Shown: positions 38,824-50,267 of the stretch, in pieces
How the letters are laid out: every line of letters starts with the position of its first letter
Position numbering within the stretch: the stretch's first letter is position 1
Source: an uncultured Gemmatimonadota bacterium
GTDB taxonomy: Bacteria > Gemmatimonadota > Gemmatimonadetes > Palauibacterales > Palauibacteraceae
Length of the DNA stretch: 64,000 nucleotides
NCBI GenBank assembly: GCA_964627425.1
Contig: CAZVIY010000008.1
Span: 2,586-66,585, forward strand
Direction of reading: 5' to 3'
Notes under the pieces: generated by a model
The model's database searches: none
What the model was told of the DNA's origin: nothing
The model's input: only the letters and a program-made list of their open reading frames with translations
Translations under genes and position numbers: made by a program

Positions 38824-38915
38824 GGGCGTTCCCGATGGATGGATCGCGCGGGACTGGACTCACACGGCCTAAAGTTCGGTTCCGTCGGGAGCCTCTGGCA
38901 AGAGAGGAGAGGCGC

Positions 38916-41777
38916 CTACTCGAGCAACGACGGGACGTCCGTCCCCGGCACGGGCGCGGCGAAGAGGTAGCCCTGCCCCAGGTCGCATCCCATGGAACGG
39001 AGCCGCTCCCGCTGCTCCTCGGTCTCCACCCCTTCGGCCACGACCCGGAGGTCGAGGGTCTCCCCGAGGTTGAGCATGGTCTCCACCAGCGCCGCGTCCG
39101 TGGGACTCTCGGCCATCCGCTGGACGAAGCTCATGTCGATCTTGAGTCCGTCCAGGCGCAGGTCCCGCAGATAGGCGAACGTGGCGTACCCGGTCCCGAA
39201 GTCGTCGACGTAGACCTGGAAGCCCAGCTCCCGGAGCCGGTCGATCCTCCGGGGCTCCTGCATGATGGTGGTCTCGGTCACCTCGATGATCACCCGCTCG
39301 GGAGACAGGCCGGCCTCCCGGACCGCCCTCAGCAACCGGTCGGATACCTCCGGATCCTCGAACTGCTGACCCGAGAGATTGAAGCTCACGGTCGGGGTCG
39401 GCGGCGCGCCCCCGTTTCCCCGGGGCCACCCGGCCGCCTCCCGACAGCCCTTCCGGAGGATGGTCTCGCCGAGCTCCCCGATGAGCCCGAGCTCCTCGGC
39501 CAGCGGGATGAACTCCCCGGGCGAGACGATTCCCTCCCGGGGATGGTTCCACCGGGCCAGGGCCTCGAAGCCCACCAGCGACCCGTCCCCGAGGTGGACG
39601 ATGGGCTGATAGTAGGGCACGAACTCCCCGGCCTCGAGCCCCCGGCGGAGCTCCTGCTCCCGTCGGATCTGGCCGACCCCCTCCATCTCCTCGTCAGGAT
39701 CGAACAGGTAGAAGTCGGTGGTCGGCCGCTCCTTTGCCCGGTGGAGCGCCAGGTCCCCGAAGCGCACGAGCTCCTCGGGGTCAGCGGACTGGACCATGGG
39801 GTGCTCCCCGTCCCGCCCGTACAGCACCCCACCCACACAGAGGTCCAGGTGGAGGGACTCTCCCATGGCCTCGAAAGGTCGCTCCACCGCCTCCTGGATG
39901 CGCTCGTGGACGGCCCGGATCGCCTCGGGGGCCTCCAGCTCGGGAAGCACGACCACGAACTCGTCGCCTCCCCAGCGGGCCACCGTGTCCTCGTCGCGGA
40001 CCTTCTCCTGGAGCCGACGGGCGAGCGCCTCCAGCACACGGTCGCCGGCGGCGTGGCCGAGCCGGTCGTTGATCCGCTTGAAGCGGACCAGGTCGAGCAT
40101 GAGGAGGCCCAGGGGCTGCCCGCTGCGCTGGGAGCGGGCCACCCCCTGCTCCACCCGGTCCACCAGCAGCGCGCGGTTGGCAAGTCCGGTCAGGGGATCG
40201 TGGAGCGCCCGGTGTCGGAGCTCCTCCTCCAGCCGCTTCTGTTCGGTCACGTCCCGGGCCACGCCGGCGACACGGTAGACCTCCCCCTCCTGGTCGGTCA
40301 CCGGGAAGCCCTGGTCCCGGATCCAGCGGACCTCCCCGTCCGGCCGGATCAGACGATACTCGAACTGGAAGGAGGTGGTCGCCTCCTCGCGCACGGCCCT
40401 GGCCACCCGGTCCCGGTCCTCGGGATGGATCAGATCGATCCAGAGGCCGGGATCCGAATAGAGCTCCTCGACGGAGCGGCCCGTGACGTCCTCGAACGCC
40501 GGGCTCACGTACAGCATCTCCTCGCTCGTGGGATCCCGGAGCCAGAAGACCTCGTTGACGTTCTCGGCCATCTGCCGGAACCGCTCCTCGCTCTCCCGGA
40601 GCGCTTCCCGGGCCCGCTTCTCCACGGTGATGTCCCGGACGAACCCGACCTGCTGCTGGGCCTTCTCCCCCGGGAGCTCGACGGCCGCCACGCGGAGGTC
40701 GCCCCAGACCACCCGTTCGGAGCCGGTGACGAACCGCTTCTGGAGCTGATATTCCGAGATCTCCCCCGCGGCCAGCCGCTCGTAGAGTTCGACGTCCTCC
40801 TCCACGTCGTCCGGATGGGTGAAGTCGCGGAAGTGGGTGCCCTCCAGCTCCTCCGGCCGGTAGTCCAGCATGTCGGCCAGCGTCCGGTTGCACTCCACCA
40901 CCCGCCCATCCCCGGAGACCACGGCCACCCCCACGGGGCTCTCGGCGAAGAGCGTGCGGTAGCGCTGCTCCGCCCGCTCGGCCTGCCGGCGCTTCATCAC
41001 CTGCTCGGTGACGTCCACCCCGTGGGCGATGACGCCGGTGATCTCGCCGTCCTCCCGCCGGGGTTGGTAGACGAACGTGATGTACTTCTCCTGGACTCCT
41101 TCTTCCGTCTTCAGGGGACGAAACCGTTCCTGGGCGGTGATCCGCTCGCCGGACTCGTAGACCCGGTCGAGGAGCTCGAAGTAGCCCTCCTCCTCCAGCT
41201 CCGGGAAGACCTCCCGGACGGAACGTCCGATGACCTCGCGGTCGCCCACGAACTCCCGATAGGCCGGGTTGACCCTCGCGAAGACGTGCTCCGGCCCCTC
41301 GACCACGGCGATCCAGGACGGCGCCAGCCGGAACACCTCCTCCAGGCGCGACCGCTCGGTCTCGAGCTCCCGGATCAGCCCGTGCCGATCCACCGCCCAC
41401 CGGAGGGTGCGAGCGACGAGCCGCGGGTTGAGCTCGTCCTTCTCCAGGTAGTCGGCCGCGCCGGCCTCCAGCGCCTCGTGAGCCGTCTCGCGATCCTGGA
41501 GGCCGGTGAGCACGAGCACGGGGACGGCGGGACTGGATTCCGTGACCCGGCAGATCGTATCGGCCCCCTGGCTGTCCGGGAGGCCCAGATCCAGCACCAC
41601 CGCGTCCCACCGCTGCTCGCGGGTGGCCTCGAGCCCCCCCTCCAGCGACCGTTCCCACCGGGTCACCGCGTCCAGTCCGCCCTCCTCGAGGAGGGCCTCG
41701 AACAGACGCGCGTCGCCGGGGTTGTCCTCGATCAACAGGAGATCGAGCGGCTCCTCGATGGTCCGGGTCGAGCTCAT
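38916..41777 (-). CDS. Response-regulator receiver / multi-PAS / GGDEF / EAL protein
   Basis: Start at internal ATG 41777, preceded by GAGGAGG. LDLLLIEDNPGD receiver domain. Four PAS-like units. RDEDTVARWGGDEFVVVL (I-site plus GGDEF). GFEALARW and DDFGTGY (EAL). Confidence 0.9.
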   Translation of the reverse strand: MSSTRTIEEPLDLLLIEDNPGDARLFEALLEEGGLDAVTRWERSLEGGLEATREQRWDAVVLDLGLPDSQGADTICRVTESSPAVPVLVLTGLQDRETAHEALEAGAADYLEKDELNPRLVARTLRWAVDRHGLIRELETERSRLEEVFRLAPSWIAVVEGPEHVFARVNPAYREFVGDREVIGRSVREVFPELEEEGYFELLDRVYESGERITAQERFRPLKTEEGVQEKYITFVYQPRREDGEITGVIAHGVDVTEQVMKRRQAERAEQRYRTLFAESPVGVAVVSGDGRVVECNRTLADMLDYRPEELEGTHFRDFTHPDDVEEDVELYERLAAGEISEYQLQKRFVTGSERVVWGDLRVAAVELPGEKAQQQVGFVRDITVEKRAREALRESEERFRQMAENVNEVFWLRDPTSEEMLYVSPAFEDVTGRSVEELYSDPGLWIDLIHPEDRDRVARAVREEATTSFQFEYRLIRPDGEVRWIRDQGFPVTDQEGEVYRVAGVARDVTEQKRLEEELRHRALHDPLTGLANRALLVDRVEQGVARSQRSGQPLGLLMLDLVRFKRINDRLGHAAGDRVLEALARRLQEKVRDEDTVARWGGDEFVVVLPELEAPEAIRAVHERIQEAVERPFEAMGESLHLDLCVGGVLYGRDGEHPMVQSADPEELVRFGDLALHRAKERPTTDFYLFDPDEEMEGVGQIRREQELRRGLEAGEFVPYYQPIVHLGDGSLVGFEALARWNHPREGIVSPGEFIPLAEELGLIGELGETILRKGCREAAGWPRGNGGAPPTPTVSFNLSGQQFEDPEVSDRLLRAVREAGLSPERVIIEVTETTIMQEPRRIDRLRELGFQVYVDDFGTGYATFAYLRDLRLDGLKIDMSFVQRMAESPTDAALVETMLNLGETLDLRVVAEGVETEEQRERLRSMGCDLGQGYLFAAPVPGTDVPSLLE

Positions 41778-42195
41778 GGACAGCCTCCTCGTGGGATCGT
41801 GCGATCCCCTGAGAGACGACGATCTGGCTCGCACGGGCCATTCGCGCTCGGCCCCGAAGGGGAAGGCAACCCTTATTGGCAATCGAGCCGTACACCAGGG
41901 GACTCGGAATCGGTTCCCCCGGCCAGCACCGGCCGACGGCGATCCTACCGTACGACCTCGCCCTGGCGAATGCCCTGGACTCGCCCGGACCCTTTCCGGG
42001 CAAATCCCGAACCCGGAATCTCCGATGATCGTAAATCGTGGCAGGTCATGGACATCCGACGATACCCCACGCGAGGAGACGTCGGAAGCAAGATCCGGAT
42101 TCCGGAAAGATTCCCGGCCCGGCCCCCTGGACGGAGGGAAAGGTCTTCTCGAACGGAGGGCGACGCTTCGGGAGCCCCCGCAGCATCATACATCA

Positions 42196-42240
42196 TGGGC
42201 GCTGCTGGATTCGAACCAGCGACCTCCTGCTTGTAAGGCA
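42196..42240. repeat. 45-bp direct repeat: displaced copy of the 3' part of tRNA-Val (att-like site)
   Basis: tgggcgctgctggattcgaaccagcgacctcctgcttgtaaggca is identical to 50192-50236. Flanks diverge immediately on both sides. Confidence 0.9.
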
Positions 42241-42574
42241 AGGAGAGAAGCCCCCCTAGATTGGCTTAAGGTCATACCGAAAAAGCGATTAGTCTGCAAT
42301 GTGCAGAATCGGCCAGGGGCCGAAATGAGGCGCTGCTGAGGCCCAACGTTAGCACCGGCGTTAACATCTGGCCGGGAGCTCATCAGGTAGGATCCAGGGG
42401 CTTCCCAAACCACTACTCCGAGACACGAGGCCAGGCCAATGAGGGAGTCAAGCCCACTCCGGAATCACGTTGTCCCGAACGAGCACCTAAGCGACCACAT
42501 TCCTTCAGCTGTATGCCAGTGCCAACCCGAGAGCGTAGCGCGACGAACAGTATCCTCGCAAGGTTCGTTCGACT

Positions 42575-43213
42575 TCACCTACTACCTGCACCAGATCTTA
42601 TTGCTAGACGATTCACAAGCGAAAGAGAGAGCCCAATACCTAACCCCGCACCGGTCGAAATTGCTAAGGTTGAGCTTGGCGCGGGTCCTGATCTGACGGT
42701 GACGCCAATAAGGATTGTCGCACAGCCGAACAAGCCGGTCAGGGCAGAAGAGACTCGGTAGAAGCGCTTCTTTAAAAGTTTCCCCACGCAATAAACAGTA
42801 GGCGCGCTCCCTAATAATACGCCTCCAGCAAATACTATTAGTGGTCGTGGTTCATCGGAAACGACAACATCGAAAAGTTGCTCGTCTATCGCGAGCTGTA
42901 TAAAAAAAACAGCGACTGCCCCGAAGCCAATAATATGAGCCAGATAATTATCTATTCGCGACCACCGATCCTCACGTCTGGCAGGATGATGATGACGCCA
43001 CTCAATGGCGAAGCGGAACCCAAAATAAACCACCAACGCAAGTAGTACGAGCGGTGCTGCATCCGGGCTCTGTAAAGAGAAAGGTAGGTTCGAACTTTGA
43101 AGTTCGACTCCTACTAGCTCCCACGCTAGGAGAAGTCCTGCAACGAGACCGTAAGATTTCCGCGCCTTCTGATAGCTCTCTGAGCGCGGCGGGGGAAGGT
43201 TTGTCTCAGGCAC
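42575..43213 (-). CDS. Hypothetical multi-pass membrane protein (island)
   Basis: 212-aa ORF. GTG start preceded by GGAGGAG. About 5-6 hydrophobic helices (LVAGLLLAWELVGV, LVLLALVVYFGF, IIGFGAVAVFFIQLAI, LIVFAGGVLLG, LFGCATILIGV). Confidence 0.65.
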   Translation of the reverse strand: MPETNLPPPRSESYQKARKSYGLVAGLLLAWELVGVELQSSNLPFSLQSPDAAPLVLLALVVYFGFRFAIEWRHHHPARREDRWSRIDNYLAHIIGFGAVAVFFIQLAIDEQLFDVVVSDEPRPLIVFAGGVLLGSAPTVYCVGKLLKKRFYRVSSALTGLFGCATILIGVTVRSGPAPSSTLAISTGAGLGIGLSLSLVNRLAIRSGAGSR

Positions 43214-43693
43214 GCCTGCTCCTCCAGTAGGCTATGATCGGCCTTCCTCCGAAACTTCGTCAGGATTCTATCTTAATCCATCCCGCTTTACTCATCTTAA
43301 CGTGACGCTGGGCACGCTAGCCAGACATTCGCAAACCGCCATCGCTCAGTTTCTATAGGCATATTTATCAAGCGGTTCAATCTCAAGCTAAAAGACCTAG
43401 CGTATTCCGGATATCCGGCGGCCACGCGCTCAGAATGCGGGTCAGTGCCAGTCTCACTCGCCCGCTGGGTCATAGCGTTGATGTTATACCAGATGCCGGG
43501 TTTTTCGCGGACCGGTTCCGAATAGCATTAGGTCAATAGCGGGCCGATTCAGAGGGCTTTTTACTGAAGATGGCCGGAGTTTTACTATATGCTTGAGGTC
43601 TTGCGCTTAAAGTCCACGTGCGTGGAGAGAACAGGGAATAAGTTGTTGTCCGGATCCCCGCCGCATACATCCGATCGGGAGGGAGGGAAGCGA

Positions 43694-44260
43694 GTGTCTG
43701 AGTTCTTCGAAGGCCTAGCAGGTTTTGTGTCTGGACTCTCCGCGAGGGGATGGGTCACGCTCGTGGCTCTGGTCGTCCTCGCAGGAGTCGTATTTTTCGG
43801 TGTACGAGCCTACTCTGGTGGCTTCACGTATGATCGAATAGAACGAGAAATTGACCTGCTATCGGAACTTCAAGAGATACGACGTGACACAGTGATGAGG
43901 CGAGACACGGGTCTAGTAAGAGTTTACCAAGGAATCCGTACAAAACTAGATTCAACTGTCCGTCGAGATCGTGGTTTAAGCCTACCCACCATCTCAGTCG
44001 GTCCCCGCTTCTGGCAACTGGTAGTAGCATTCATTCCCTGGATTCTCTTGGCGCTAGCATTCTGGAGAATTGAGGCATTTCATCCAAAAGAGGGTGATCT
44101 CGTTTCTGCAGTCACCGGTACTCTCTTTGTCGGATTCCTGTTTGCACTCGTCGGAAGCTTACTTTTCCCAGATTGGCCCGCCTGGGTGCGATACCTTCTG
44201 TATCCGATCGGAGGGACGATTCTGATTATGATCGTCCTCGCAAAGAAAGGAGGATCGTAA
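43694..44260 (+). CDS. Hypothetical membrane protein (island)
   Basis: Internal GTG at 43694 sits 6 nt after GGGAGGGAGGG. The ORF-track start 43589 has no RBS. TM helices WVTLVALVVLAGVVFFGV, LVVAFIPWILLALAFW, VTGTLFVGFLFALVGSLLF, LLYPIGGTILIMIVLA. Confidence 0.65.
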   Translation: MSEFFEGLAGFVSGLSARGWVTLVALVVLAGVVFFGVRAYSGGFTYDRIEREIDLLSELQEIRRDTVMRRDTGLVRVYQGIRTKLDSTVRRDRGLSLPTISVGPRFWQLVVAFIPWILLALAFWRIEAFHPKEGDLVSAVTGTLFVGFLFALVGSLLFPDWPAWVRYLLYPIGGTILIMIVLAKKGGS

Positions 44261-44510
44261 CTTCGGTCGGCCAGTTCATCCTTGCAGTTTGCAACCGCCT
44301 CCCTCCCCGGAAGGGTGGACTACGTAGAGGGGCGTATAATGCTACTCTCGGGCAGGAAGCAATCATTTCGCGCATCTATAAGAGGGCTTGCGACGCAGCC
44401 GCCGAGGACGGGCGCACCGAGGACGAGCTTCAGGCCACCGAGCGGACGGGCTCAAATGGAGGAGTCACCAAGACTGAGGTGGAGGTGCACCTGCGGGAGG
44501 CGCTCATATC

Positions 44511-44645
44511 ATGAACTGCTTCGCAGGGACCCGGGCCGAACGGGAGTGGCTGTCGGCGCTGCGGAGGATCGCCGATGCGCTGGAGCGGATTTCGCAGGTG
44601 TTAGAATCCCCACCTTCGGATAAGCCACCGAATGGAGAAGCTTAG
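44511..44645 (+). CDS. Possible 44-aa small protein (island)
   Basis: Manual translation: MNCFAGTRAEREWLSALRRIADALERISQVLESPPSDKPPNGEA*. GGGAGG lies about 10 nt upstream. Balanced helical composition. Below the ORF-track length cutoff. Confidence 0.3.
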   Translation: MNCFAGTRAEREWLSALRRIADALERISQVLESPPSDKPPNGEA

Positions 44646-44647
44646 TT

Positions 44648-45250
44648 TCAACCTACCATCTGCTGAAGAAGTTCTCTCGCCCATTCAACTCCTGGCTTCG
44701 ACAGCCTGTAGTTTTTTGCCTTTGAGCCTGGCATCCCTTCAACCAAAAGATACGCTGTCTCCTTTAGGTAGGTAGAAAAATTGTGATCGAGGCAACCGTC
44801 CCGTTCGCACAACTCTCTGAGAGTCGCCGCTTGAGTGGTTTTCTGTCCGCGTGCCTTCTCGTTCAGATAGCAGCCAATTACCGAGAGGTCGATCATCCGG
44901 CCCTTCTTTCCCTCGGCTTCCAACTCCCCGAAAACCCGGATCGCGTTCTCGTCGAGTTCAACCACTCGCTCCAACTCAGCTAGGGTCACATCCGCGTCCT
45001 CGACTACGGCCCGTAGGCCAGACCCAATCGGCGCTCGCCGGGTTGATTCGTCATTTGGAGAATCCGATCCGTCCCGCTCCCGGGGGGCACTCGCCGGTTC
45101 TTCGGTCGCCGGCTTTACCCTCTGCGGAGACAGCATTTGCTGCAGTAGCTGCTCAACAATTACTGCTTGGAGATGTTCCGGGTGATTACTGGCGATCGAT
45201 ACAACTTCATCCACCAGTTCTCGCCACTCCTTGACCTTTTCCTCATCCAT
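44648..45250 (-). CDS. Hypothetical protein with helical N-terminus, acidic linker and C-terminal wHTH-like module (island)
   Basis: 200-aa ORF, 15 nt downstream of 45266-46048 on the same strand. C-terminus NFSTYLKETAYLLVEGMPGSKAKNYRLSKPGVEWAREL is winged-helix-like. Confidence 0.7.
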   Translation of the reverse strand: MDEEKVKEWRELVDEVVSIASNHPEHLQAVIVEQLLQQMLSPQRVKPATEEPASAPRERDGSDSPNDESTRRAPIGSGLRAVVEDADVTLAELERVVELDENAIRVFGELEAEGKKGRMIDLSVIGCYLNEKARGQKTTQAATLRELCERDGCLDHNFSTYLKETAYLLVEGMPGSKAKNYRLSKPGVEWARELLQQMVG

Positions 45251-45265
45251 GAATGGGCCTGTTCC

Positions 45266-46048
45266 CTATAGTTCCCAGTCGTGTTCGGCTAGCAGCTCCT
45301 CCGCTCCCTCTCTGCCCTTGGGTGAAAGGTGCACGAGGCCAGCGTCCGAATCGTACTCGATAAGCCTCTCGCCGTGAAGAGGTTCGAGGTTGCGGGTACG
45401 GTAATCATAGAATCGGGGAACCTCACACCACTCTTGTAATTGCCTGTCACCCACGGGATCAGGATAAGCATGATAGAGGAGGACTAGGGTCGCCTCGTCA
45501 TTGGTAAGGTACGTCTCCAAAACACGCTTCTTTCCAGCTACCTCCCACACCAAGGGGATTCGTTTCTCTACCAGTGCGTCCACTAGCGACTGAGCTTCCT
45601 CAATACTCGTCCCGTGAAAGATCCGGACGAGTTCCGCCATCACCCAGTTTGCGGTTCCTACAACTGCTTCCGCGTCCATGTGGTTGGGATCCACGTCACC
45701 ACCCACATGTCCTACGCTCCGCTTGTTGCGGACGGTATAGAGGAAGTCCAGCGCGTTTGGAATATGGAACCGGACTGAGTCTGGGAACGAACTCTTGTTT
45801 TCGAACCGGCGGAGGGCTTGACCGAAATCCCGAATGGAATCCGAGAGATCCATGTAGTCATTGTCTGGGTCGGTGTGCCATTCCAGGATTCGATATACAA
45901 CCTCCCCAAGCTTCCCACCATTCAGTTCGGAGGGCTCCCAACGCCGTTCTGCGTAGTTTCGTCGGATTCGGTTGAAGGCCCCCAGAAGTTCCTTCCGTAA
46001 CTCATCAGGGAGACTCGAAAGCCCTTCTTCCGGTTTGAGTATAGTCAT
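45266..46048 (-). CDS. Hypothetical protein with HEPN-like RNx5H motif and C-terminal wHTH-like module (island)
   Basis: 260-aa ORF. FLYTVRNKRSVGHVGGDVDPNHMD fits the HEPN Rx4-6H signature in a helical context. C-terminus ERLIEYDSDAGLVHLSPKGREGAEELL is winged-helix-like. Assignment made by eye only. Confidence 0.7.
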   Translation of the reverse strand: MTILKPEEGLSSLPDELRKELLGAFNRIRRNYAERRWEPSELNGGKLGEVVYRILEWHTDPDNDYMDLSDSIRDFGQALRRFENKSSFPDSVRFHIPNALDFLYTVRNKRSVGHVGGDVDPNHMDAEAVVGTANWVMAELVRIFHGTSIEEAQSLVDALVEKRIPLVWEVAGKKRVLETYLTNDEATLVLLYHAYPDPVGDRQLQEWCEVPRFYDYRTRNLEPLHGERLIEYDSDAGLVHLSPKGREGAEELLAEHDWEL

Positions 46049-46131
46049 CGGCTCATTCGGAGGACTGGACTGTCGACTCGATTCATCAATACTATCTTAC
46101 GATGGTACACTCACAAAACTAGGGGGTCAAT

Positions 46132-46623
46132 TTGCCTAACGAGGACGATGATCAGGAGAAGGGGACGAAAAACTACAAGATATCAATCGACGGTCCAGGT
46201 GTTGAGATCTCAAAGGAGGTCTCAGGGGATACCTTCGCCACGGTAATCGCAGTGCTCTTTGGAAGCGGAGAGGGCGCGAGAATTCCCGGCTTTGCCGGCG
46301 CCGCAGATCCAACGGAATCTTCGGATCAGAGGACGTCGCGACCTAATCTGTCTCCTGCAGAGTTCCTCCAGCAGACGAATGCTTCTACCAATCGAGAACG
46401 AATCGCGGCTTTCGCTTGGTACGCGTCTGAGCATCTTGAGCAGGACGGCATCCTACAGGACGATCTACCTGATCTATTCCGTCGGGCCCATCAGAGCGTT
46501 CCCAAGAACATGCGTCGTGATGTTAGACAGGCTAAGCGAGATGGTCTCGTGGATGAACATCCCGAAGACTCTGATCAGCTCTACGTTACGCAGACCGGCC
46601 GGGAGACGCTCCGTTCGGAGTAA
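46132..46623 (+). CDS. Hypothetical protein with C-terminal wHTH-like module (island)
   Basis: 163-aa ORF. TTG start 5 nt after AGGGGG. Divergent from 46048. C-terminus NMRRDVRQAKRDGLVDEHPEDSDQLYVTQTGRETL parallels the C-termini of the two minus-strand genes. Confidence 0.65.
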   Translation: MPNEDDDQEKGTKNYKISIDGPGVEISKEVSGDTFATVIAVLFGSGEGARIPGFAGAADPTESSDQRTSRPNLSPAEFLQQTNASTNRERIAAFAWYASEHLEQDGILQDDLPDLFRRAHQSVPKNMRRDVRQAKRDGLVDEHPEDSDQLYVTQTGRETLRSE

Positions 46624-46703
46624 CTTCGAATTAGCGGAACCTATTGAGACGTCGGTGAGAGTCCGTCCCAAGTTGCTCCTGGACTCGAACCTGGGAGTAA
46701 TCC

Positions 46704-46886
46704 ATGGACGACGACACCCTGTTCCGCTGCCAGCTCGAACGTCACGGGAACGGCATCCGAGAATTGAAGGTCTTGGAGATCTGGTACGACTGGCCCGGGA
46801 CGGCTCGCCGGGAAGCCGAGGCCGTGGATGGAGGCTGGCAGGTGGTGGGCGTGTCGGCGGACTTCGGGGCTAGCAAGCCTTTCTAG
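46704..46886 (+). CDS. Hypothetical 60-aa protein (island)
   Basis: ATG 6 nt after GGGAG. MDDDTLFRCQLERHGNGIRELKVLEIWYDWPG... has protein-like composition. Confidence 0.5.
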   Translation: MDDDTLFRCQLERHGNGIRELKVLEIWYDWPGTARREAEAVDGGWQVVGVSADFGASKPF

Positions 46887-46980
46887 TTCAGCCAGTCATC
46901 TCGCCCGAACCGCTCTAACCTGTTAATCGTAGGAGACTGGGCGGATAAGATTCTGGCTGCTCCCGTACACTCGGAGGCGA

Positions 46981-47307
46981 ATGATGACCAACTTTCCCCA
47001 AATCAAGGCCGAGTTGGATCTTAGCGAGGCAGAGCGGGAGCTTTTGGAACAAGCTCATACTGGTAGCACAGGCGTCATAAACGAATCCCGAGTGCTGTCG
47101 GACATTTACCTTGCGCATCACCTTCGGTCTGCTACCGGATCGTTGGTCGGGGCCACAGATGGCCTTCAAGTAGCAATCAAGAAGTCGACGAAGAAGATCA
47201 TAGAAAGCAATGAAAATCTAGCCGAGTCGAACCGGCGGTACGCCCTCGGATTAAACATTCTCACGGGCGCGCTCGTGCTTGTCACCTTCGCTCAACTCAT
47301 TTTCTAG
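46981..47307 (+). CDS. Hypothetical tail-anchored membrane protein (island)
   Basis: GGAGG just upstream of tandem ATGs (46981/46984). Helical N-terminal part and a C-terminal TM helix LNILTGALVLVTFAQLIF. Confidence 0.6.
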   Translation: MMTNFPQIKAELDLSEAERELLEQAHTGSTGVINESRVLSDIYLAHHLRSATGSLVGATDGLQVAIKKSTKKIIESNENLAESNRRYALGLNILTGALVLVTFAQLIF

Positions 47308-47498
47308 TAAGCAGTTGTTGTAGCCCCCGCCGCCTACCGGCCCTCCTCGGTGGCCCGGCAGAGGCGTTCATCCACTTCCTCGTTCAGACTGCGGGCCTCC
47401 CACGGGTGTCCGGGGGTTTTCTCATACCCGGGGGGACGTAGATTAGTCTTGGCTCATCATGCGATGGGTCAAGATCTATCTACATCTGGAGGAAGACT

Positions 47499-47750
47499 AT
47501 GAGCTATCACACAGCAGTGGTGTGCCCCAACTGGGAGGCCGACCAAGACCACGTGGCCATCGGCGCCGGCGAACTGATGGACAATCTGCCCACATTCTGC
47601 GAGGGCTGTGGAACGGAACTCATCGCTGCCTGCCCCTCCTGCGGAGAAGCTCTCCGGGGAAGGCTTGAGGACGGTCCCATCACAACGAGACCCTTCCAGC
47701 CGAAGAGCCACTGCGGGGACTGCGGCGAAGCGCTCCCCTGGGCCGGGTAG
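47499..47750 (+). CDS. Zinc-ribbon protein with three CxxC pairs (DUF2321-like by recollection) (island)
   Basis: GGAGG 6 nt upstream of the ATG. FCEGCGTELIAACPSCGEALRG...HCGDCGEALPW. Confidence 0.65.
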   Translation: MSYHTAVVCPNWEADQDHVAIGAGELMDNLPTFCEGCGTELIAACPSCGEALRGRLEDGPITTRPFQPKSHCGDCGEALPWAG

Positions 47751-47764
47751 GGAATTGGGACAAC

Positions 47765-48052
47765 ATGAAGCTGAGCGACTTCATCCCCGTCCGGGGGATC
47801 TGGATGTACCCCTTTTGGTTTGGGGCATTCATCTTCGCGCTGATGCTTCTGTTCATCGGGTCTCTGCCCGATCCGGTCCGGAGGTGGACGTTGCCTTCTT
47901 TTGCGGTCTACCTCCTTGGGCTGGGCAACTTGATCTTTCTAAAGGAGCTCAAGCACCGGCGATACATTGCCGACCGTCGGCATGACAGGGATCTAGGGCC
48001 GACCGAATCGCTATCTGCATCGGAGAAAAACCTCCCCGACGGCTGGGTTTGA
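47765..48052 (+). CDS. Hypothetical 2-TM membrane protein (island)
   Basis: 95-aa ORF, 14 nt after the previous stop. TM helices WMYPFWFGAFIFALMLLFIG and LPSFAVYLLGLGNLIFL. Confidence 0.6.
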   Translation: MKLSDFIPVRGIWMYPFWFGAFIFALMLLFIGSLPDPVRRWTLPSFAVYLLGLGNLIFLKELKHRRYIADRRHDRDLGPTESLSASEKNLPDGWV

Positions 48053-48178
48053 AGCTTTTGGGTTCTCCAAGCGGTATGGCTGGTCCTCTTCGTGGCCTAC
48101 AACTTCGGCAAGGACGTTCTCTGATCGCAGGAACGGGCGTTGTAAAACTGGAATGTTAACCCATCGCCGCGCTGAATC

Positions 48179-48292
48179 TCAGCCGACCACGTCCCGGATG
48201 ACCTCGGCCACCCGGTCGGAAATCTGGTAGACCATCTCCCCGGCGTCCTGGTCCCAGCGCCGCTCGAAGGGGGCTCCTCCCCCTATTCTCAC
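48179..48292 (-). CDS. Possible 37-aa small ORF translationally coupled to 48289-48681 (island)
   Basis: GTGA overlap with the upstream stop. Manual translation: (V)RIGGGAPFERRWDQDAGEMVYQISDRVAEVIRDVVG*. Confidence 0.25.
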   Translation of the reverse strand: MRIGGGAPFERRWDQDAGEMVYQISDRVAEVIRDVVG

Positions 48293-48681
48293 CGGTGCTC
48301 CTGGAGCTTACGGATCTTCTTTTGGAGGTCCCGAATCTTTGCCTCAAGCTTGGCCTCCTTCTTCTCCTCCTGGAGGGCCTTCAGGGTGGTATCCATCCCC
48401 TTCCGAAGCTCGTTGTAGGCCTTCTCGCTCATCCGCCCCCCAATCAGTTCGGCCGTCGCCCAGGACAGGTACCGACGAACCTCTCCAGCCGTTTGCGGCG
48501 CGGGGAAGGGTGGCTCCGCCGGGGAGTCGTTCCGGGGGCTCCTGGAGCCACCCAGGGATCTCCCGTGAGACTTCTTCTCCTGGGCGTACGGAGACTCATC
48601 GTGCAGAAGGCAGAGGTCCTCGGACCCCTTCCAGACGTACCCGGAACAATTCTCCTCAGAGCAGGGGCGTGCCTTACCCAT
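48289..48681 (-). CDS. Hypothetical CCCH zinc-finger-like / coiled-coil protein (island)
   Basis: Internal ATG 48681 preceded by GGAGG. CSEENCSGYVWKGSEDLCLLH (Cx4C...Cx2H). C-terminal heptad-like KALQEEKKEAKLEAKIRDLQKKIRKLQE. Confidence 0.6.
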   Translation of the reverse strand: MGKARPCSEENCSGYVWKGSEDLCLLHDESPYAQEKKSHGRSLGGSRSPRNDSPAEPPFPAPQTAGEVRRYLSWATAELIGGRMSEKAYNELRKGMDTTLKALQEEKKEAKLEAKIRDLQKKIRKLQEHR

Positions 48682-48724
48682 CGTCGCCTCCGCCCGTGAC
48701 CACCATGCGCTCCCGGATTCGGTC

Positions 48725-49615
48725 CTAGCGGGACTTCTGGGGGTCCAGGAGGGTGGGGTCATCCGTCGGCAGGGACTCGGCCCAGTCAGCGAAGCCTTGG
48801 CGGTCGTCCTCAGTGCCGCGTACCGAAATCTCGGCTGGGCCTGCAGGGGGGAAGTCGGGCGTGCTCCTGGGCTCCATCGTTGCCATCGGGCCCGTCCACC
48901 GGCCACGGTCCTCAACCGTACGGATTACTCGCTCCAGCTGGTGCCGGTGGCTCTGGGCCCGCTCGGCAGCCAGTTCGTTGGCCACGGTCTGATGGTTGGC
49001 GTGGGCGAGAGCCACCGCCTCCTGGGCGACGGCCAACGGATGAGACTCGGGGAGGGACTCAAACCGCTCCTTCCGGATCCGGCGCGTCACCTCATCCGAG
49101 AGGGTCTGGGCAGTGGCACGGTCACCGGCGGTGACCGCCGTGACCACCTTCTCCATGAGTTCCTCATCCTCCATGCGGTCCAGCTGGGCTACCAGGAGGA
49201 GGAGGTGTTTGGAGTCCGAGATCGGCTCCTTAGGGAGGGTGGCCGGCCCGAACCGCTGGTTGACGGCCTCCACGAGGAGATCCGCCTTCTTCCGTGCTTG
49301 AGCGGTTAGGTTCCGTCGGTCCTCCTGGAAGTTCTCCTCGGCCTCAGGGCTCAGCTGGCCCGCCCGGGCGAAGCGCCGGATCTTCTGCTCATTCCGCCAG
49401 TCGGCCTCGGCCTGGCGAACCAGTTCCACCTTCAGATTGCCGAACCGCTTCCAGTGGGGGGCCGTCTCTAGCTCCCTTCGGGCGGCCTCTTCGTATCGCT
49501 GTCTGAGCGCGTCGAGTTGAGCGCGGGCGTCCTGGGGTGTCATCGGGGCTCCTGGGGGGGCTTCTGGGAGGGATTTTTCTGAAAAAATGTCGCCGGTGGG
49601 TTTGGGAATTTTCAC
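48725..49615 (-). CDS. Hypothetical all-helical protein (island)
   Basis: 296-aa ORF from GTG 49615. ATG 49543 (MTPQDARAQ...), preceded by AGGAG, is a more likely start. No recognisable motifs, and no tyrosine- or serine-recombinase signature. Confidence 0.6.
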   Translation of the reverse strand: MKIPKPTGDIFSEKSLPEAPPGAPMTPQDARAQLDALRQRYEEAARRELETAPHWKRFGNLKVELVRQAEADWRNEQKIRRFARAGQLSPEAEENFQEDRRNLTAQARKKADLLVEAVNQRFGPATLPKEPISDSKHLLLLVAQLDRMEDEELMEKVVTAVTAGDRATAQTLSDEVTRRIRKERFESLPESHPLAVAQEAVALAHANHQTVANELAAERAQSHRHQLERVIRTVEDRGRWTGPMATMEPRSTPDFPPAGPAEISVRGTEDDRQGFADWAESLPTDDPTLLDPQKSR

Positions 49616-49808
49616 CGGAATAGCGCGAGGGCCCGCCCTACCGCCCCACAGCCCGTTACCGGGGGGTGGGGTCTGGTTTCGAGGGGGGCCCCAACTGCCG
49701 CACCCGCCGATGTAGCAGGGGAGATGGCACGGTGGGCGGCTAAGGAGTAGCGAGGGTCAGAAGTACCGTGTCTGCCCTCATGATCTAAGATACCCGGCGG
49801 GTAGCTGA

Positions 49809-49857
49809 GGTGTGTTCAGGGCAAACACACCCGGCAGACGCCTGCTAAGGTAGCAGG
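49809..49857. other. Two adjacent perfect hairpins in the island arm next to the tRNA
   Basis: ggtgtgtt-cagggca-aacacacc (49809-49831) and cctgcta-agg-tagcagg (49841-49857). Confidence 0.5.
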
Positions 49858-49918
49858 AGTTTAACCGCCGACACCCCTTGTCATGCCTAAAGGTTGGGCA
49901 ACGGTGTTAACGCAAGCG

Positions 49919-49928
49919 AACGTTAACA
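49919..49928 (+). repeat. AACGTTAACA motif copy (also at 50148-50157; variants at 42345-42354 and 42357-42366)
   Basis: Exact 10-mer AACGTTAACA at 49919 and 50148. AACGTTAgCA at 42345. ggCGTTAACA at 42357. A further GTTAAC at 49906. All lie in the non-coding island ends. Confidence 0.55.
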
Positions 49929-50191
49929 CGCCTGTCAGGAGAAAACCGCCGCAGCCCATCGGTACTGGGGACGGGGTGGGGAGGAGAGCCCTACTCCTCT
50001 CTGAAGCACCGTTCTATCCCGTGACGGCCGAGGATCCAGATGCCCTTCCCTCCGCCCACACGGATCCCGGTGAGTTCTTCCGATTCATTATCCCGGCAAA
50101 CCCCGAAAGGCCGGCCAGGAAGGAGCCTATCGGTTACATCAACACTCAACGTTAACAGAACAGCGGGCCCCCTCAGGATCCCTATGAACAG

Positions 50192-50267
50192 TGGGCGCTG
50201 CTGGATTCGAACCAGCGACCTCCTGCTTGTAAGGCAGGCGCTCTCGACCAGGCTGAGCTAAGCGCCC
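50192..50267 (-). tRNA. tRNA-Val (anticodon TAC)
   Basis: The reverse complement GGGCGCTTAGCTCAGCCTGGTCGAGAGCGCCTGCCTTACAAGCAGGAGGTCGCTGGTTCGAATCCAGCAGCGCCCA folds as a cloverleaf. Acceptor GGGCGCT/AGCGCCC, anticodon arm CCTGC-CTTACAA-GCAGG, T-arm GCTGG-TTCGAAT-CCAGC. 76 nt; CCA not encoded. Confidence 0.9.

What the first reader, a model, noticed from the sequence alone, without database searches (positions are those of the whole stretch)
44648..46048. Two-gene cassette with a HEPN-like (RNx5H) wHTH protein: candidate abortive-infection or defence module
Two minus-strand genes lie 15 nt apart in the middle of the island. The first (260 aa) has a helical N-terminal domain containing FLYTVRNKRSVGHVGGDVDPNHMD. 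This matches the Rx4-6H signature (with the frequent RN start) of HEPN RNase domains, which are common in Abi, toxin-antitoxin and CRISPR-accessory proteins. It is followed by a winged-helix-like C-terminus (ERLIEYDSDAGLVHLSPKGREGAEELL). The second (200 aa) has a helical N-terminus, an acidic low-complexity linker and a similar wHTH-like C-terminus. I do not recognise either protein as a named family. A HEPN effector paired with a partner in a tRNA-linked island is a reasonable candidate for an undescribed defence or toxin system. The HEPN call rests on one motif read by eye.
Basis: inference. Interest (0 to 1): 0.65.

Follow-up and report, generated by a model that had tools for sequence, protein, structure and literature searches.

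The report
Unnamed HEPN RNase with winged-helix partners
A small foreign DNA island carries a gene for a probable RNA-cutting toxin-like enzyme, flanked by two fast-evolving DNA-binding partner genes; it belongs to a large, unnamed family found across bacteria and archaea that looks like a new kind of toxin-antitoxin or anti-phage module, though this is untested.

Summary
ORF A (45266-46048, minus strand, 260 aa) and ORF B (44648-45250, minus strand, 200 aa) lie 15 nt apart in an ~8-kb, 55%-GC island bounded by perfect 45-nt repeats of tRNA-Val.

A belongs to a family of more than 3,000 protein clusters, all unnamed and without a Pfam domain. Several lines support the HEPN call:
- R107, N108, H114 and E49 are conserved in 193-196 of 196 sequences.
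- In a confident AlphaFold model they sit where HEPN catalytic residues should.
- The RNx5H spacing matches the tested Abi_C RNase SadR.
- 16 of 47 members weakly hit Pfam Abi_C on exactly this segment.
- The best structural matches by TM-score are all HEPN proteins.

No single fold or profile hit is statistically significant.

The C-terminus is a MarR-like winged helix. In 90% of 146 other loci one such hypervariable partner lies directly upstream of A. The window's layout is a rare variant.

Neighbouring genes vary and are only loosely defence- or TA-associated. The most likely reading is a new HEPN toxin/partner (TA or Abi-like) module. Function is inferred, not shown.

The parts
45266..46048 (-). 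Gene A, 260 aa: an N-terminal HEPN-like domain fused to a C-terminal MarR-like winged helix. The public NCBI gene call (195 aa, starting at M66) is too short.
   Evidence: ORF. More than 3,000 homolog clusters, all unnamed. AlphaFold pLDDT 90.4. The conserved N-terminus lies upstream of M66.
45569..46048 (-). HEPN-like domain of A (residues about 1-160). Helix 1 is 15-33 and helix 2 is 44-59, with invariant E49. An insert with a helix spans 75-84. Helix 3 is 90-109, helix 4 is 121-145, and an extra helix is 149-160.
   Evidence: N-domain model has pLDDT 88.6 and pTM 0.85. All Foldseek hits with TMq of 0.29 or more are HEPN proteins: 2hsb, 7ae9, 4nqf, 9bj5-7. The HEPN criteria come from PMC3710099.
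45707..45730 (-). [quoted passage not shown]
   Evidence: Conservation is R107 196/196, N108 193/196, R110 195/196 and H114 195/196. Pfam Abi_C weak hits map here. It has the same register as SadR's RNEYGDAH, whose R, N and H are essential.
45284..45556 (-). C-terminal winged helix-turn-helix of A (residues about 165-255).
   Evidence: Foldseek matches MarR, MepR and AspA with probability about 1.0 over 78-84 residues.
44648..45250 (-). Gene B, 200 aa: a partner-family protein with a helical N-terminus, a low-complexity linker and a C-terminal MarR-like winged helix (about 44666-44908). It lies 15 nt downstream of A.
   Evidence: The partner HMM hits B at E 2e-9. It has a full-length ortholog downstream of A in L084 (37% identity, E 7e-44). 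There are 106 divergent relatives. The partner profile hits MepR/MarR at E 2e-4. It aligns to A's wHTH at E 1.9e-4.
46132..46623 (+).
   Evidence: The partner HMM hits C at E 3e-9. Orthologs lie divergently upstream of A in L085 (31% identity, E 8e-28) and L090 (E 2e-24).
46049..46131 (.). 83-bp divergent intergenic region between A and C. It is the presumed shared promoter/operator region, with one sigma-70-like match on the minus strand at 46130-46102.
   Evidence: Sequence. One promoter-like site was found against 0.8 expected, which is not significant. No inverted repeat was found.
42196..42240 (.). Distal att-like direct repeat: a partial copy of the 3' part of tRNA-Val, marking one end of the ~8-kb island.
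   Evidence: 100% identical 45-nt repeat. Rfam tRNA partial hit of 35 bits.
50191..50267 (-). tRNA-Val(tac). It holds the proximal 45-nt repeat (50192-50236) and marks the other end of the island.
   Evidence: ARAGORN, Rfam 73.8 bits, repeat.

Best explanation
Gene A encodes a previously unclassified HEPN-superfamily ribonuclease. Its catalytic core (E49, R107, N108, H114) is closest to the Abi_C/AbiJ type (RNx5H). It is fused to a C-terminal MarR-like winged helix.

A works as a module with one or two small, very fast-evolving partner proteins that carry a related winged helix. In the window these are B (downstream) and C (divergent). In most genomes there is a single partner immediately upstream, often overlapping A by 4 nt.

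The most likely mechanism is toxin-antitoxin or abortive-infection-like:
1. The partner binds A and/or the shared promoter and keeps the RNase silent.
2. Loss, titration or displacement of the labile partner, for example during phage infection or loss of the element, frees a HEPN dimer.
3. The free dimer cleaves cellular RNA and arrests growth.

Shown here: the gene anatomy, residue conservation, domain folds and pairing statistics. Inferred: RNase activity, toxicity, neutralisation by the partner and any defence role.
For: **HEPN call**
- Conservation in 196 sequences at a median 46% identity: R107 196/196, N108 193, H114 195, E49 196.
- In the AF2 models (pLDDT 90.4 and 88.6), R107-N108 end helix 3, H114 opens the loop to helix 4, and E49 sits in helix 2 as E-x3-R. 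There is a helical insert between helices 2 and 3. These are the criteria given in PMC3710099.
- 16 of 47 members weakly hit Pfam Abi_C (best E 0.0033). The next most frequent family is hit by only 4 members. The hits cover residues about 96-136, which is the motif region.
- SadR, an Abi_C RNase, uses RNEYGDAH with essential R, N and H. The x5 spacer is the commonest in Abi_C proteins.
- All Foldseek PDB hits with TMq of 0.29 or more are HEPN proteins from four independent structure families.

**Module**
- The partner is upstream on the same strand in 132 of 146 loci. Called genes show 4-nt overlaps or 8-nt gaps.
- The partner is hypervariable: mean column identity 13% against 55% for A. Partners are only about 42% identical where A proteins are 60-70% identical.
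- The partner has a low-complexity linker, a MarR-type wHTH and a wHTH related to A's own.

**Context**
- The window copy sits in a tRNA-linked foreign island.
- Other copies lie beside TA or defence genes: MNT/HepT, ParE/Phd, PIN/MazE, HicA, TIR-SIR2, SoFic, AbiE and R-M genes, and integrases.

**Precedent**
- In retron type IX, a WH protein alone neutralises a HEPN toxin.
Against: - No fold or profile match to HEPN is statistically significant. The best HEPN Foldseek E-value is 2.5 and the best TM-score is 0.43/0.55.
- The Abi_C scores shown for individual members are about 13 bits against a cut-off of 24, and the window protein itself gives no Abi_C hit.
- PADLOC's Abi models are not hit.
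- Many loci sit among housekeeping genes and there is no conserved third gene.
- The family is absent from PLSDB plasmids, INPHARED phages and IMG/VR, apart from one edge fragment. This is unusual for TA or defence modules.
- In the window the gene order is atypical.
- B-like proteins also pair with a small non-HEPN wHTH protein X, so the partner family is not exclusive to the RNase.
- No operator-like inverted repeat was found in the A/C intergenic region.
- There are no experimental data.
Confidence: 0.55

Rival explanations
1. This is a sensor-effector Abi of the AbiJ/SadR type, split over two or three polypeptides. A is an RNase that is inactive by default. The hypervariable winged-helix partners are not antitoxins. 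They act as specificity or sensor subunits that recognise phage DNA or proteins and switch A on.
For: - The motif is of the Abi_C type.
- In AbiJ-family proteins, variable N-terminal domains are proposed to be sensors.
- The partner's extreme divergence and alternative N-terminal types, and tandem partner duplications in 16 of 80 loci, fit an arms-race sensor.
- SadR is non-toxic without a partner.
Against: - Partner-first order with 4-nt overlap is the classic antitoxin-toxin layout.
- A WH protein acts as an antitoxin in retron IX.
- No data distinguish activation from inhibition.
Confidence: 0.2
2. A, B and C are DNA-binding regulators of the integrated element or of host genes. The helical N-domain of A is a non-catalytic ligand-binding or dimerisation domain that only resembles HEPN.
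For: - All three proteins carry MarR-like winged helices.
- B-like proteins pair with a small wHTH protein X, with no HEPN gene, next to an integrase.
- HEPN fold matches are not significant.
- Many loci lie in ordinary chromosomal contexts, and there are none on plasmids or phages.
Against: - Near-absolute conservation of exactly the HEPN catalytic set (E49, R107, N108, H114), plus a 16-residue invariant loop, across bacteria and archaea argues for an enzyme.
- Non-catalytic HEPN domains typically lose the motif.
Confidence: 0.15
3. The N-domain of A is a different helical enzyme, for example a Fic/Doc-like or other phosphate-binding fold acting on nucleotides or proteins, and the RNx5H match to HEPN is coincidental.
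For: - With the full-length model, two Fic+wHTH proteins appear among weak whole-length Foldseek hits (4rgl, 7xux; E 0.5-0.7).
- One member weakly hits Fic-like_C.
- The conserved loop GHxGGDVDPN sits at a helix N-terminus and could form an anion-binding site (inference).
Against: - The Fic hits have TM about 0.2 and disappear when the N-domain is searched alone.
- The Fic-like_C hit lies on the wHTH (residues 189-225).
- There is no HxFx[DE]GNGRxxR motif in the sequence.
- HEPN structures are the only consistent N-domain matches.
Confidence: 0.07

Closest known systems
Abi_C (PF14355) / AbiJ-family HEPN RNases, e.g. Staphylococcus aureus SadR and Lactococcus AbiJ
   Same: It shares the R-N-x5-H catalytic register, with a G in the middle (SadR RNEYGDAH against RNKRSVGH here). 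Weak Abi_C profile hits in 16 of 47 members fall on the motif segment. A nucleic-acid-binding HTH-type module is fused in the same polypeptide.
   Different: - Scores are far below the Pfam cut-off, and the window protein has no hit.
- Domain order is reversed: HEPN is N-terminal and the winged helix C-terminal, whereas Abi_C is C-terminal behind AbiJ-NTDs.
- AbiJ and SadR act as single genes, whereas this family has a partner in about 90% of loci.
- The conserved loop is much longer (RNxRGVGHxGGDVDPN).
Retron type IX (Retron-Kva2) HEPN + WH effector pair
   Same: It has a HEPN toxin encoded next to a protein made of a helical region plus a winged helix. That protein binds the toxin and can neutralise it on its own. 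It is the closest functional analogue for how the partner may work.
   Different: - No reverse transcriptase or ncRNA is associated here. None appeared among the 283 neighbour ORFs in the top Pfam families, and PADLOC retron models were not hit.
- The retron HEPN lacks Rx4-6H, whereas A has it.
- A carries its own winged helix.
HEPN-MNT (HepT-MntA) type II/VII toxin-antitoxin
   Same: It is a two-gene module with a small HEPN RNase toxin and an adjacent neutralising partner, often overlapping. HepT (7ae9) is among the best structural matches.
   Different: - The partner here is a winged-helix protein, not a nucleotidyltransferase.
- The motif is Rx6H, not Rx4HxY.
- A profile comparison with a real HepT found nothing.
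MarR/MepR-family winged-helix regulators
   Same: The C-terminal domains of A, B and the partner family match MarR/MepR by fold (probability about 1.0) and by profile (E 2e-4).
   Different: They lack the MarR dimerisation helices and overall MarR architecture. The winged helix is attached to a HEPN domain in A, and to a variable N-terminus plus disordered linker in the partners.

Membership tests
HEPN superfamily | Conserved Rx4-6H motif with a polar residue (N/D/H) right after the R | tested here: met
   R107-N108-x5-H114. Conservation is R 196/196, N 193/196 and H 195/196. The criterion is from PMC3710099.
HEPN superfamily | [quoted passage not shown] | tested here: met
   In the AF2 models helix 90-109 ends at R107-N108-K109, H114 lies in loop 110-120, and helix 4 starts at 121.
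HEPN superfamily | Conserved acidic residue in helix 2, typically Ex3[KR] | tested here: met
   E49 is 196/196 and lies in helix 44-59 as E49-VVY-R53. R53 is kept in only 82 of 196 sequences.
HEPN superfamily | Four-helix up-down bundle superimposable on solved HEPN structures | tested here: inconclusive
   The best TM-scores are all to HEPN proteins: 2hsb 0.43/0.55, 7ae9 0.39/0.43, 4nqf 0.33/0.35 and AbiV about 0.3. Foldseek E-values are 2.5-5 and probabilities are 0.38 or less. Model coordinates could not be inspected.
HEPN superfamily | Metal-independent endoribonuclease activity dependent on R and H | not testable with these tools
   Needs biochemistry.
Pfam Abi_C (PF14355) / AbiJ | Profile score at or above the curated cut-off (24 bits) | tested here: not met
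   The window protein has no hit. Members whose scores were shown reach about 12-13 bits, and the best E among the 47 members is 0.0033.
Pfam Abi_C (PF14355) / AbiJ | R-polar-x5-H spacing typical of Abi_C RNases | tested here: met
   RNKRSVGH here against SadR's RNEYGDAH. The x5 spacer is the commonest.
Pfam Abi_C (PF14355) / AbiJ | HEPN domain at the C-terminus, behind an AbiJ-NTD or no NTD, in a single-gene system | tested here: not met
   HEPN is N-terminal and the wHTH C-terminal. A partner gene is present in about 90% of loci.
Type II toxin-antitoxin module | Two adjacent co-oriented small genes, typically overlapping, with a DNA-binding labile antitoxin | tested here: met
   132 of 146 loci have partner-then-A on one strand. 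Called genes show 4-nt overlaps or 8-nt gaps. The partner has a wHTH and a low-complexity linker. The window itself is a variant, with A-then-B plus a divergent C.
Type II toxin-antitoxin module | Toxin arrests growth and the cognate partner neutralises it | not testable with these tools
   Needs expression experiments.
HEPN-MNT (HepT/MntA) | Adjacent minimal nucleotidyltransferase partner | tested here: not met
   The partners have no NTase domain. Pfam on 71 partners found none.
Retron type IX | Reverse transcriptase and ncRNA next to the HEPN and WH genes | tested here: not met
   No RT family appears among the top families of the neighbours. There is no PADLOC hit and no Rfam hit in the island.
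Type III TA (AbiF/AbiV-like, RNA antitoxin) | Tandem direct repeats encoding an RNA antitoxin upstream of the toxin | tested here: not met
   There are no tandem repeats near A, B or C.
Any PADLOC-DB v2 defence system | Profile match to a component model | tested here: not met
   No hit for A or B at E up to 1. Only scattered weak CARF/CasR hits occur in 1-2 of 47 members.

The most novel reading that the evidence does not exclude
This is the founding example of a widespread, undescribed two-component immune or addiction system of bacteria and archaea, with at least 3,000 clusters that include CPR bacteria and DPANN archaea. An Abi_C-like HEPN RNase and its hypervariable partner share a paralogous winged helix. 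The partner, or two partners of different sub-types as in this island, acts both as inhibitor and as an arms-race sensor of invading nucleic acid or protein. The same partner family can also dock onto a HEPN-less winged-helix protein (X), which would imply a modular 'winged-helix handshake' for attaching effectors.
Probability: 0.35. Interest if true: 0.65.

Novelty: new variant of a known kind. Interest (0 to 1): 0.5.

Why it matters
HEPN RNases are the effectors of many immune and addiction systems, including Cas13, Csm6, HepT, AbiJ/SadR, RnlA and retron IX.

This family matters for several reasons:
- It is large, with more than 3,000 clusters at 90% identity.
- It is strongly conserved and spans both prokaryotic domains.
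- It is invisible to Pfam, NCBIfam, PADLOC and PHROGs, so it is currently annotated everywhere as "hypothetical". In the window's own public gene call it is truncated.

If the pair proves to be a toxin/partner or anti-phage module, it would add a new HEPN architecture (HEPN-wHTH with a paralogous wHTH partner) to defence and TA catalogues. It would also give a compact two-gene system, with clear point mutants (R107, N108, H114, E49), for studying how winged-helix proteins gate HEPN nucleases.

Tried and rejected
- **Direct family searches.** A and B were searched against Pfam, PADLOC, NCBIfam and PHROGs with no result. PDB sequence searches with A and with the A profile also found nothing.
- **Full-length Foldseek.** It was dominated by the winged helix and by "helical + WH" proteins (PCI subunits, two Fic+wHTH proteins) at TM about 0.2. 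These were rejected as domain-arrangement noise. The Fic idea was dropped because there is no Fic motif, the Fic hits vanish with the N-domain alone, and the Fic-like_C hit lies on the wHTH.
- **Viral fold library.** Nothing was found.
- **hhalign of the A profile against one real HepT sequence.** Uninformative.
- **PADLOC at E up to 10 on 47 members.** No convergence on AbiJ or any other Abi model.
- **Plasmids, phages and IMG/VR.** No homologs were found apart from one edge fragment.
- **A third conserved gene.** None was found among 283 first and second neighbours.
- **RNA antitoxin or known ncRNA.** None was found.
- **Operator-like inverted repeats** in the A/C intergenic region and the A/B spacer. 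None was found. The single promoter-like match is at chance level.
- **L083 as an excised circle.** Rejected. The contig ends fall inside the two att copies, as expected from an assembly break.
- **B as an orphan.** The word-indexed search suggested this. It was rejected after exhaustive phmmer found 106 relatives.
- **X protein as a homolog of A's C-terminal module.** It aligns in register but is not significant (E 0.15).
- **Source organism.** It could not be identified. P0001 is not on record for contig look-up and carries no name or accession.
Full report
**1. Observation**

The two ORFs are real and sit exactly where stated. A is 45266..46048 (-), 260 aa. B is 44648..45250 (-), 200 aa. 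They are 15 nt apart.

They lie in a stretch of about 55% GC within a host of about 72% GC. The stretch is bounded by a perfect 45-nt direct repeat at 42196-42240 and 50192-50236. This repeat is the 3' part of tRNA-Val(tac) at 50191-50267. It is therefore a classic tRNA-integrated element of about 8 kb. No integrase could be recognised in it.

An 8,007-bp metagenomic contig (L083) is 100% identical to the island. Its ends fall inside the two repeat copies, so it says nothing about excision.

91% of shuffles of A contain an Rx4-6H match, and A has three. Its meaning comes only from comparative data.

**2. Protein A is a member of a large, unnamed family**

A has no match in Pfam, PADLOC, NCBIfam or PHROGs, nor in PDB sequences. 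It does have more than 3,000 homolog clusters, all labelled "hypothetical" and without a Pfam domain.

The genome collection holds 387 hits. They span Actinomycetota (Solirubrobacterales, Streptomyces), Chloroflexota, Pseudomonadota, Planctomycetota, Patescibacteria and Cyanobacteria. They also include Woesearchaeota, Aenigmarchaeota, Iainarchaeota and Nitrososphaerota.

Median pairwise identity is 46%. That is high for such a spread and implies strong constraint together with horizontal transfer.

The public NCBI gene call for this very gene (P0001, 195 aa) starts at M66. It removes two conserved helices, including invariant E49.

**3. Is the N-domain HEPN?**

The AlphaFold models are confident: pLDDT 90.4 for the full protein, and 88.6 with pTM 0.85 for the N-domain alone. 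The published definition of HEPN (PMC3710099) lists several features. A fulfils all of them.

| HEPN criterion | Finding in A |
|---|---|
| A polar residue after the R | N108 |
| A conserved acidic residue in helix 2, typically Ex3[KR] | Invariant E49 lies in helix 44-59 as E-VVY-R |
| Frequent inserts between helices 2 and 3 | Residues 60-89 form a helical insert |

Conservation across 196 sequences is as follows:
- R107 196/196
- N108 193/196
- R110 195/196
- H114 195/196
- E49 196/196
- D125 196/196
- R142 196/196

Three further lines point the same way:
- Scanning 47 members at a permissive threshold, 16 hit Pfam Abi_C (PF14355). This is the AbiJ-type abortive-infection HEPN domain. No other family is hit by more than 4 members. 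The matched stretch is residues about 96-136, which is the motif region.
- SadR is an Abi_C RNase with experimental data. Its catalytic motif is RNEYGDAH, its R, N and H are essential, and the x5 spacer is the commonest in Abi_C proteins (PMC13590631). A has RNKRSVGH, the identical register.
- In a Foldseek search with the N-domain alone, every hit with TMq of 0.29 or more is a HEPN protein. These are AF_0298 (2hsb, 0.43/0.55), HepT (7ae9, 0.39/0.43), 4nqf and AbiV.

Against this, none of these matches is statistically significant. Foldseek E-values are 2.5 or higher, and Abi_C scores are about half the curated cut-off. PADLOC's models are not hit.

I put the HEPN assignment at about 0.8. I file A as HEPN-like of the Abi_C type, not as a member of Pfam Abi_C.

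**4. The winged helices and the partners**

Residues about 165-255 of A are a MarR/MepR/AspA-like winged helix (Foldseek probability about 1.0).

In 80 genomic loci, a gene of about 190 aa lies immediately upstream of A on the same strand. With 80 further metagenomic loci, 132 of 146 loci with enough flank show this arrangement. Called genes overlap by 4 nt or are 8 nt apart.

A profile built from these upstream genes hits B at E 2e-9. It also hits the divergent ORF C (46132-46623, +) at E 3e-9.

B has a full-length ortholog downstream of A in L084 (37% identity, E 7e-44). C has orthologs divergently upstream of A in L085 and L090. These three loci carry the closest relatives of the window's A, at 57-60% identity.

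The window therefore holds a rare three-gene variant (C <-> A -> B) of a module whose canonical form is partner -> A. Tandem double partners also occur, in 16 of 80 loci.

The partner family is extremely divergent. Its mean column identity is 13%, against 55% for A. Where A proteins are 60-70% identical, partners are only about 42% identical.

Partners consist of a variable N-terminus of two types, a low-complexity linker and a C-terminal winged helix. That winged helix matches MepR/MarR (E 2e-4). It also aligns with A's own winged helix (hhalign E 1.9e-4, 77 columns).

B looked like an orphan in the word-indexed search. An exhaustive search found 106 divergent relatives.

**5. Context**

No third gene is conserved. 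Among 283 first and second neighbours there are housekeeping genes. There is also a scatter of Fic/SoFic, type I/II methyltransferases, AbiEi/AbiEii, HepT, ResIII, integrases and transposases.

Annotated contigs show the pair beside several defence or TA genes:
- TIR-SIR2 plus MNT/HepT plus HicB (L081)
- MNT/HepT (L085)
- ParE/Phd plus PIN/MazE (L088)
- HicA plus DUF433/DUF5615 (L090)

One locus is purely metabolic.

The family is absent from PLSDB plasmids and INPHARED phages. It is essentially absent from IMG/VR.

The pair thus behaves as an autonomous small cassette with a loose association to TA-rich or mobile regions. It is not a fixed component of defence islands. There is no RNA-antitoxin repeat and no known ncRNA.

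**6. Mechanism**

The best-supported reading has A as a HEPN RNase toxin or effector and the winged-helix partner(s) keeping it in check. This could work by binding A, plausibly through the paralogous winged helices or by covering the HEPN dimer cleft, and/or by repressing the operon. RNA cleavage would follow when the partner is lost or displaced.

The closest functional precedent is retron type IX. There, a helical-plus-WH protein encircles the HEPN active site and can neutralise the toxin on its own.

An AbiJ/SadR-like alternative, in which the partners are activating sensors, cannot be excluded. A purely regulatory, non-catalytic role is made unlikely by the invariance of the catalytic set.

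**7. An unexplained twist**

B-like proteins also occur without any HEPN gene. In these cases they lie directly downstream of, and overlap by 8 nt, a 132-138-aa winged-helix-like protein X. In one case the pair sits next to an integrase.

X aligns in register with A's C-terminal module, but not significantly (E 0.15 from only three sequences). If the relationship is real, A would be "HEPN + X". The A -> B order in the window would then mirror X -> B.

**8. Verdict**

The finding is real and the HEPN-wHTH reading is largely right. The cassette needs re-drawing to include C, and to note that the canonical order is partner-first.

It is a new variant of a known kind: HEPN toxin/partner modules. 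It belongs to a large family that no current database names. Function is inferred.

Interest is moderate (0.5). Nothing here overturns expectations, but it is a well-defined, widely distributed and readily testable candidate system.

Noticed in passing
window 42196-50236: This ~8.0-kb low-GC island is bounded by perfect 45-nt repeats of the tRNA-Val 3' end. It has no recognisable integrase or recombinase, and almost all of its ORFs lack any Pfam match.
   Followed up: partly
window 47499-47750 (+) and 47765-48052 (+): An 83-aa zinc-ribbon ORF matches the N-terminal half of DUF2321 (E 1e-11). It is followed 14 nt later by a 95-aa ORF that looks like a membrane protein. The function of this possible second small cassette in the island is unknown.
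   Followed up: no
window 45266-46048 (-); protein P0001: The public (NCBI) gene call for A is 195 aa and starts at M66. It cuts off two conserved helices, including invariant E49. The Logan call (P0122) has the full 260 aa.
   Followed up: yes
L092 550-1537, L094 297-1305, L095 3442-4474: B-like partner proteins also pair with a 132-138-aa winged-helix-like protein 'X', overlapping it by 8 nt, with no HEPN gene. In L092 the pair lies next to a phage-type integrase. X may be related to A's C-terminal module, but this is not significant.
   Followed up: partly
L081 8856-10343; L082 3494-4981: A 495-aa SEFIR/TIR_2 + SIR2_2 protein lies 79 nt downstream of the partner-A pair on the same strand. 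In L081, MNT/HepT and HicB genes are a few kb away. This is a defence-island-like context for that copy.
   Followed up: no
L006, L007, L022, L023, L030, L033, L035, L038, L051, L055, L064, L066, L075, L079 (upstream of A): Some loci carry two partner-family genes in tandem upstream of A, often of different sub-types. This suggests partner duplication and diversification.
   Followed up: partly
L083 (Logan SRR9010616, 8007 bp): This independent metagenomic contig is 100% identical to the island. It ends 26 and 30 nt inside the two att copies, which is an assembly-graph break at the repeat and not evidence of a circular form.
   Followed up: yes
L095 4632-5958: On this 2x-coverage contig the gene calls are broken. 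A 292-aa 'B-like' product and a 158-aa product together probably represent a partner and a frameshifted or mis-called A-family gene.
   Followed up: partly
window 38835-42236: Very long overlapping ORFs lie on both strands (1133 aa on + and 740 aa on -) in the high-GC host flank. At most one can be real. This is typical high-GC ORF noise and is worth remembering when reading ORF lists here.
   Followed up: no
partner alignment A4 and family alignment A1: One partner (E 7e-4) and one A-family member (E 0.039) weakly hit Pfam AbiJ_NTD4. This is another faint link to the AbiJ world and is too weak to interpret.
   Followed up: no
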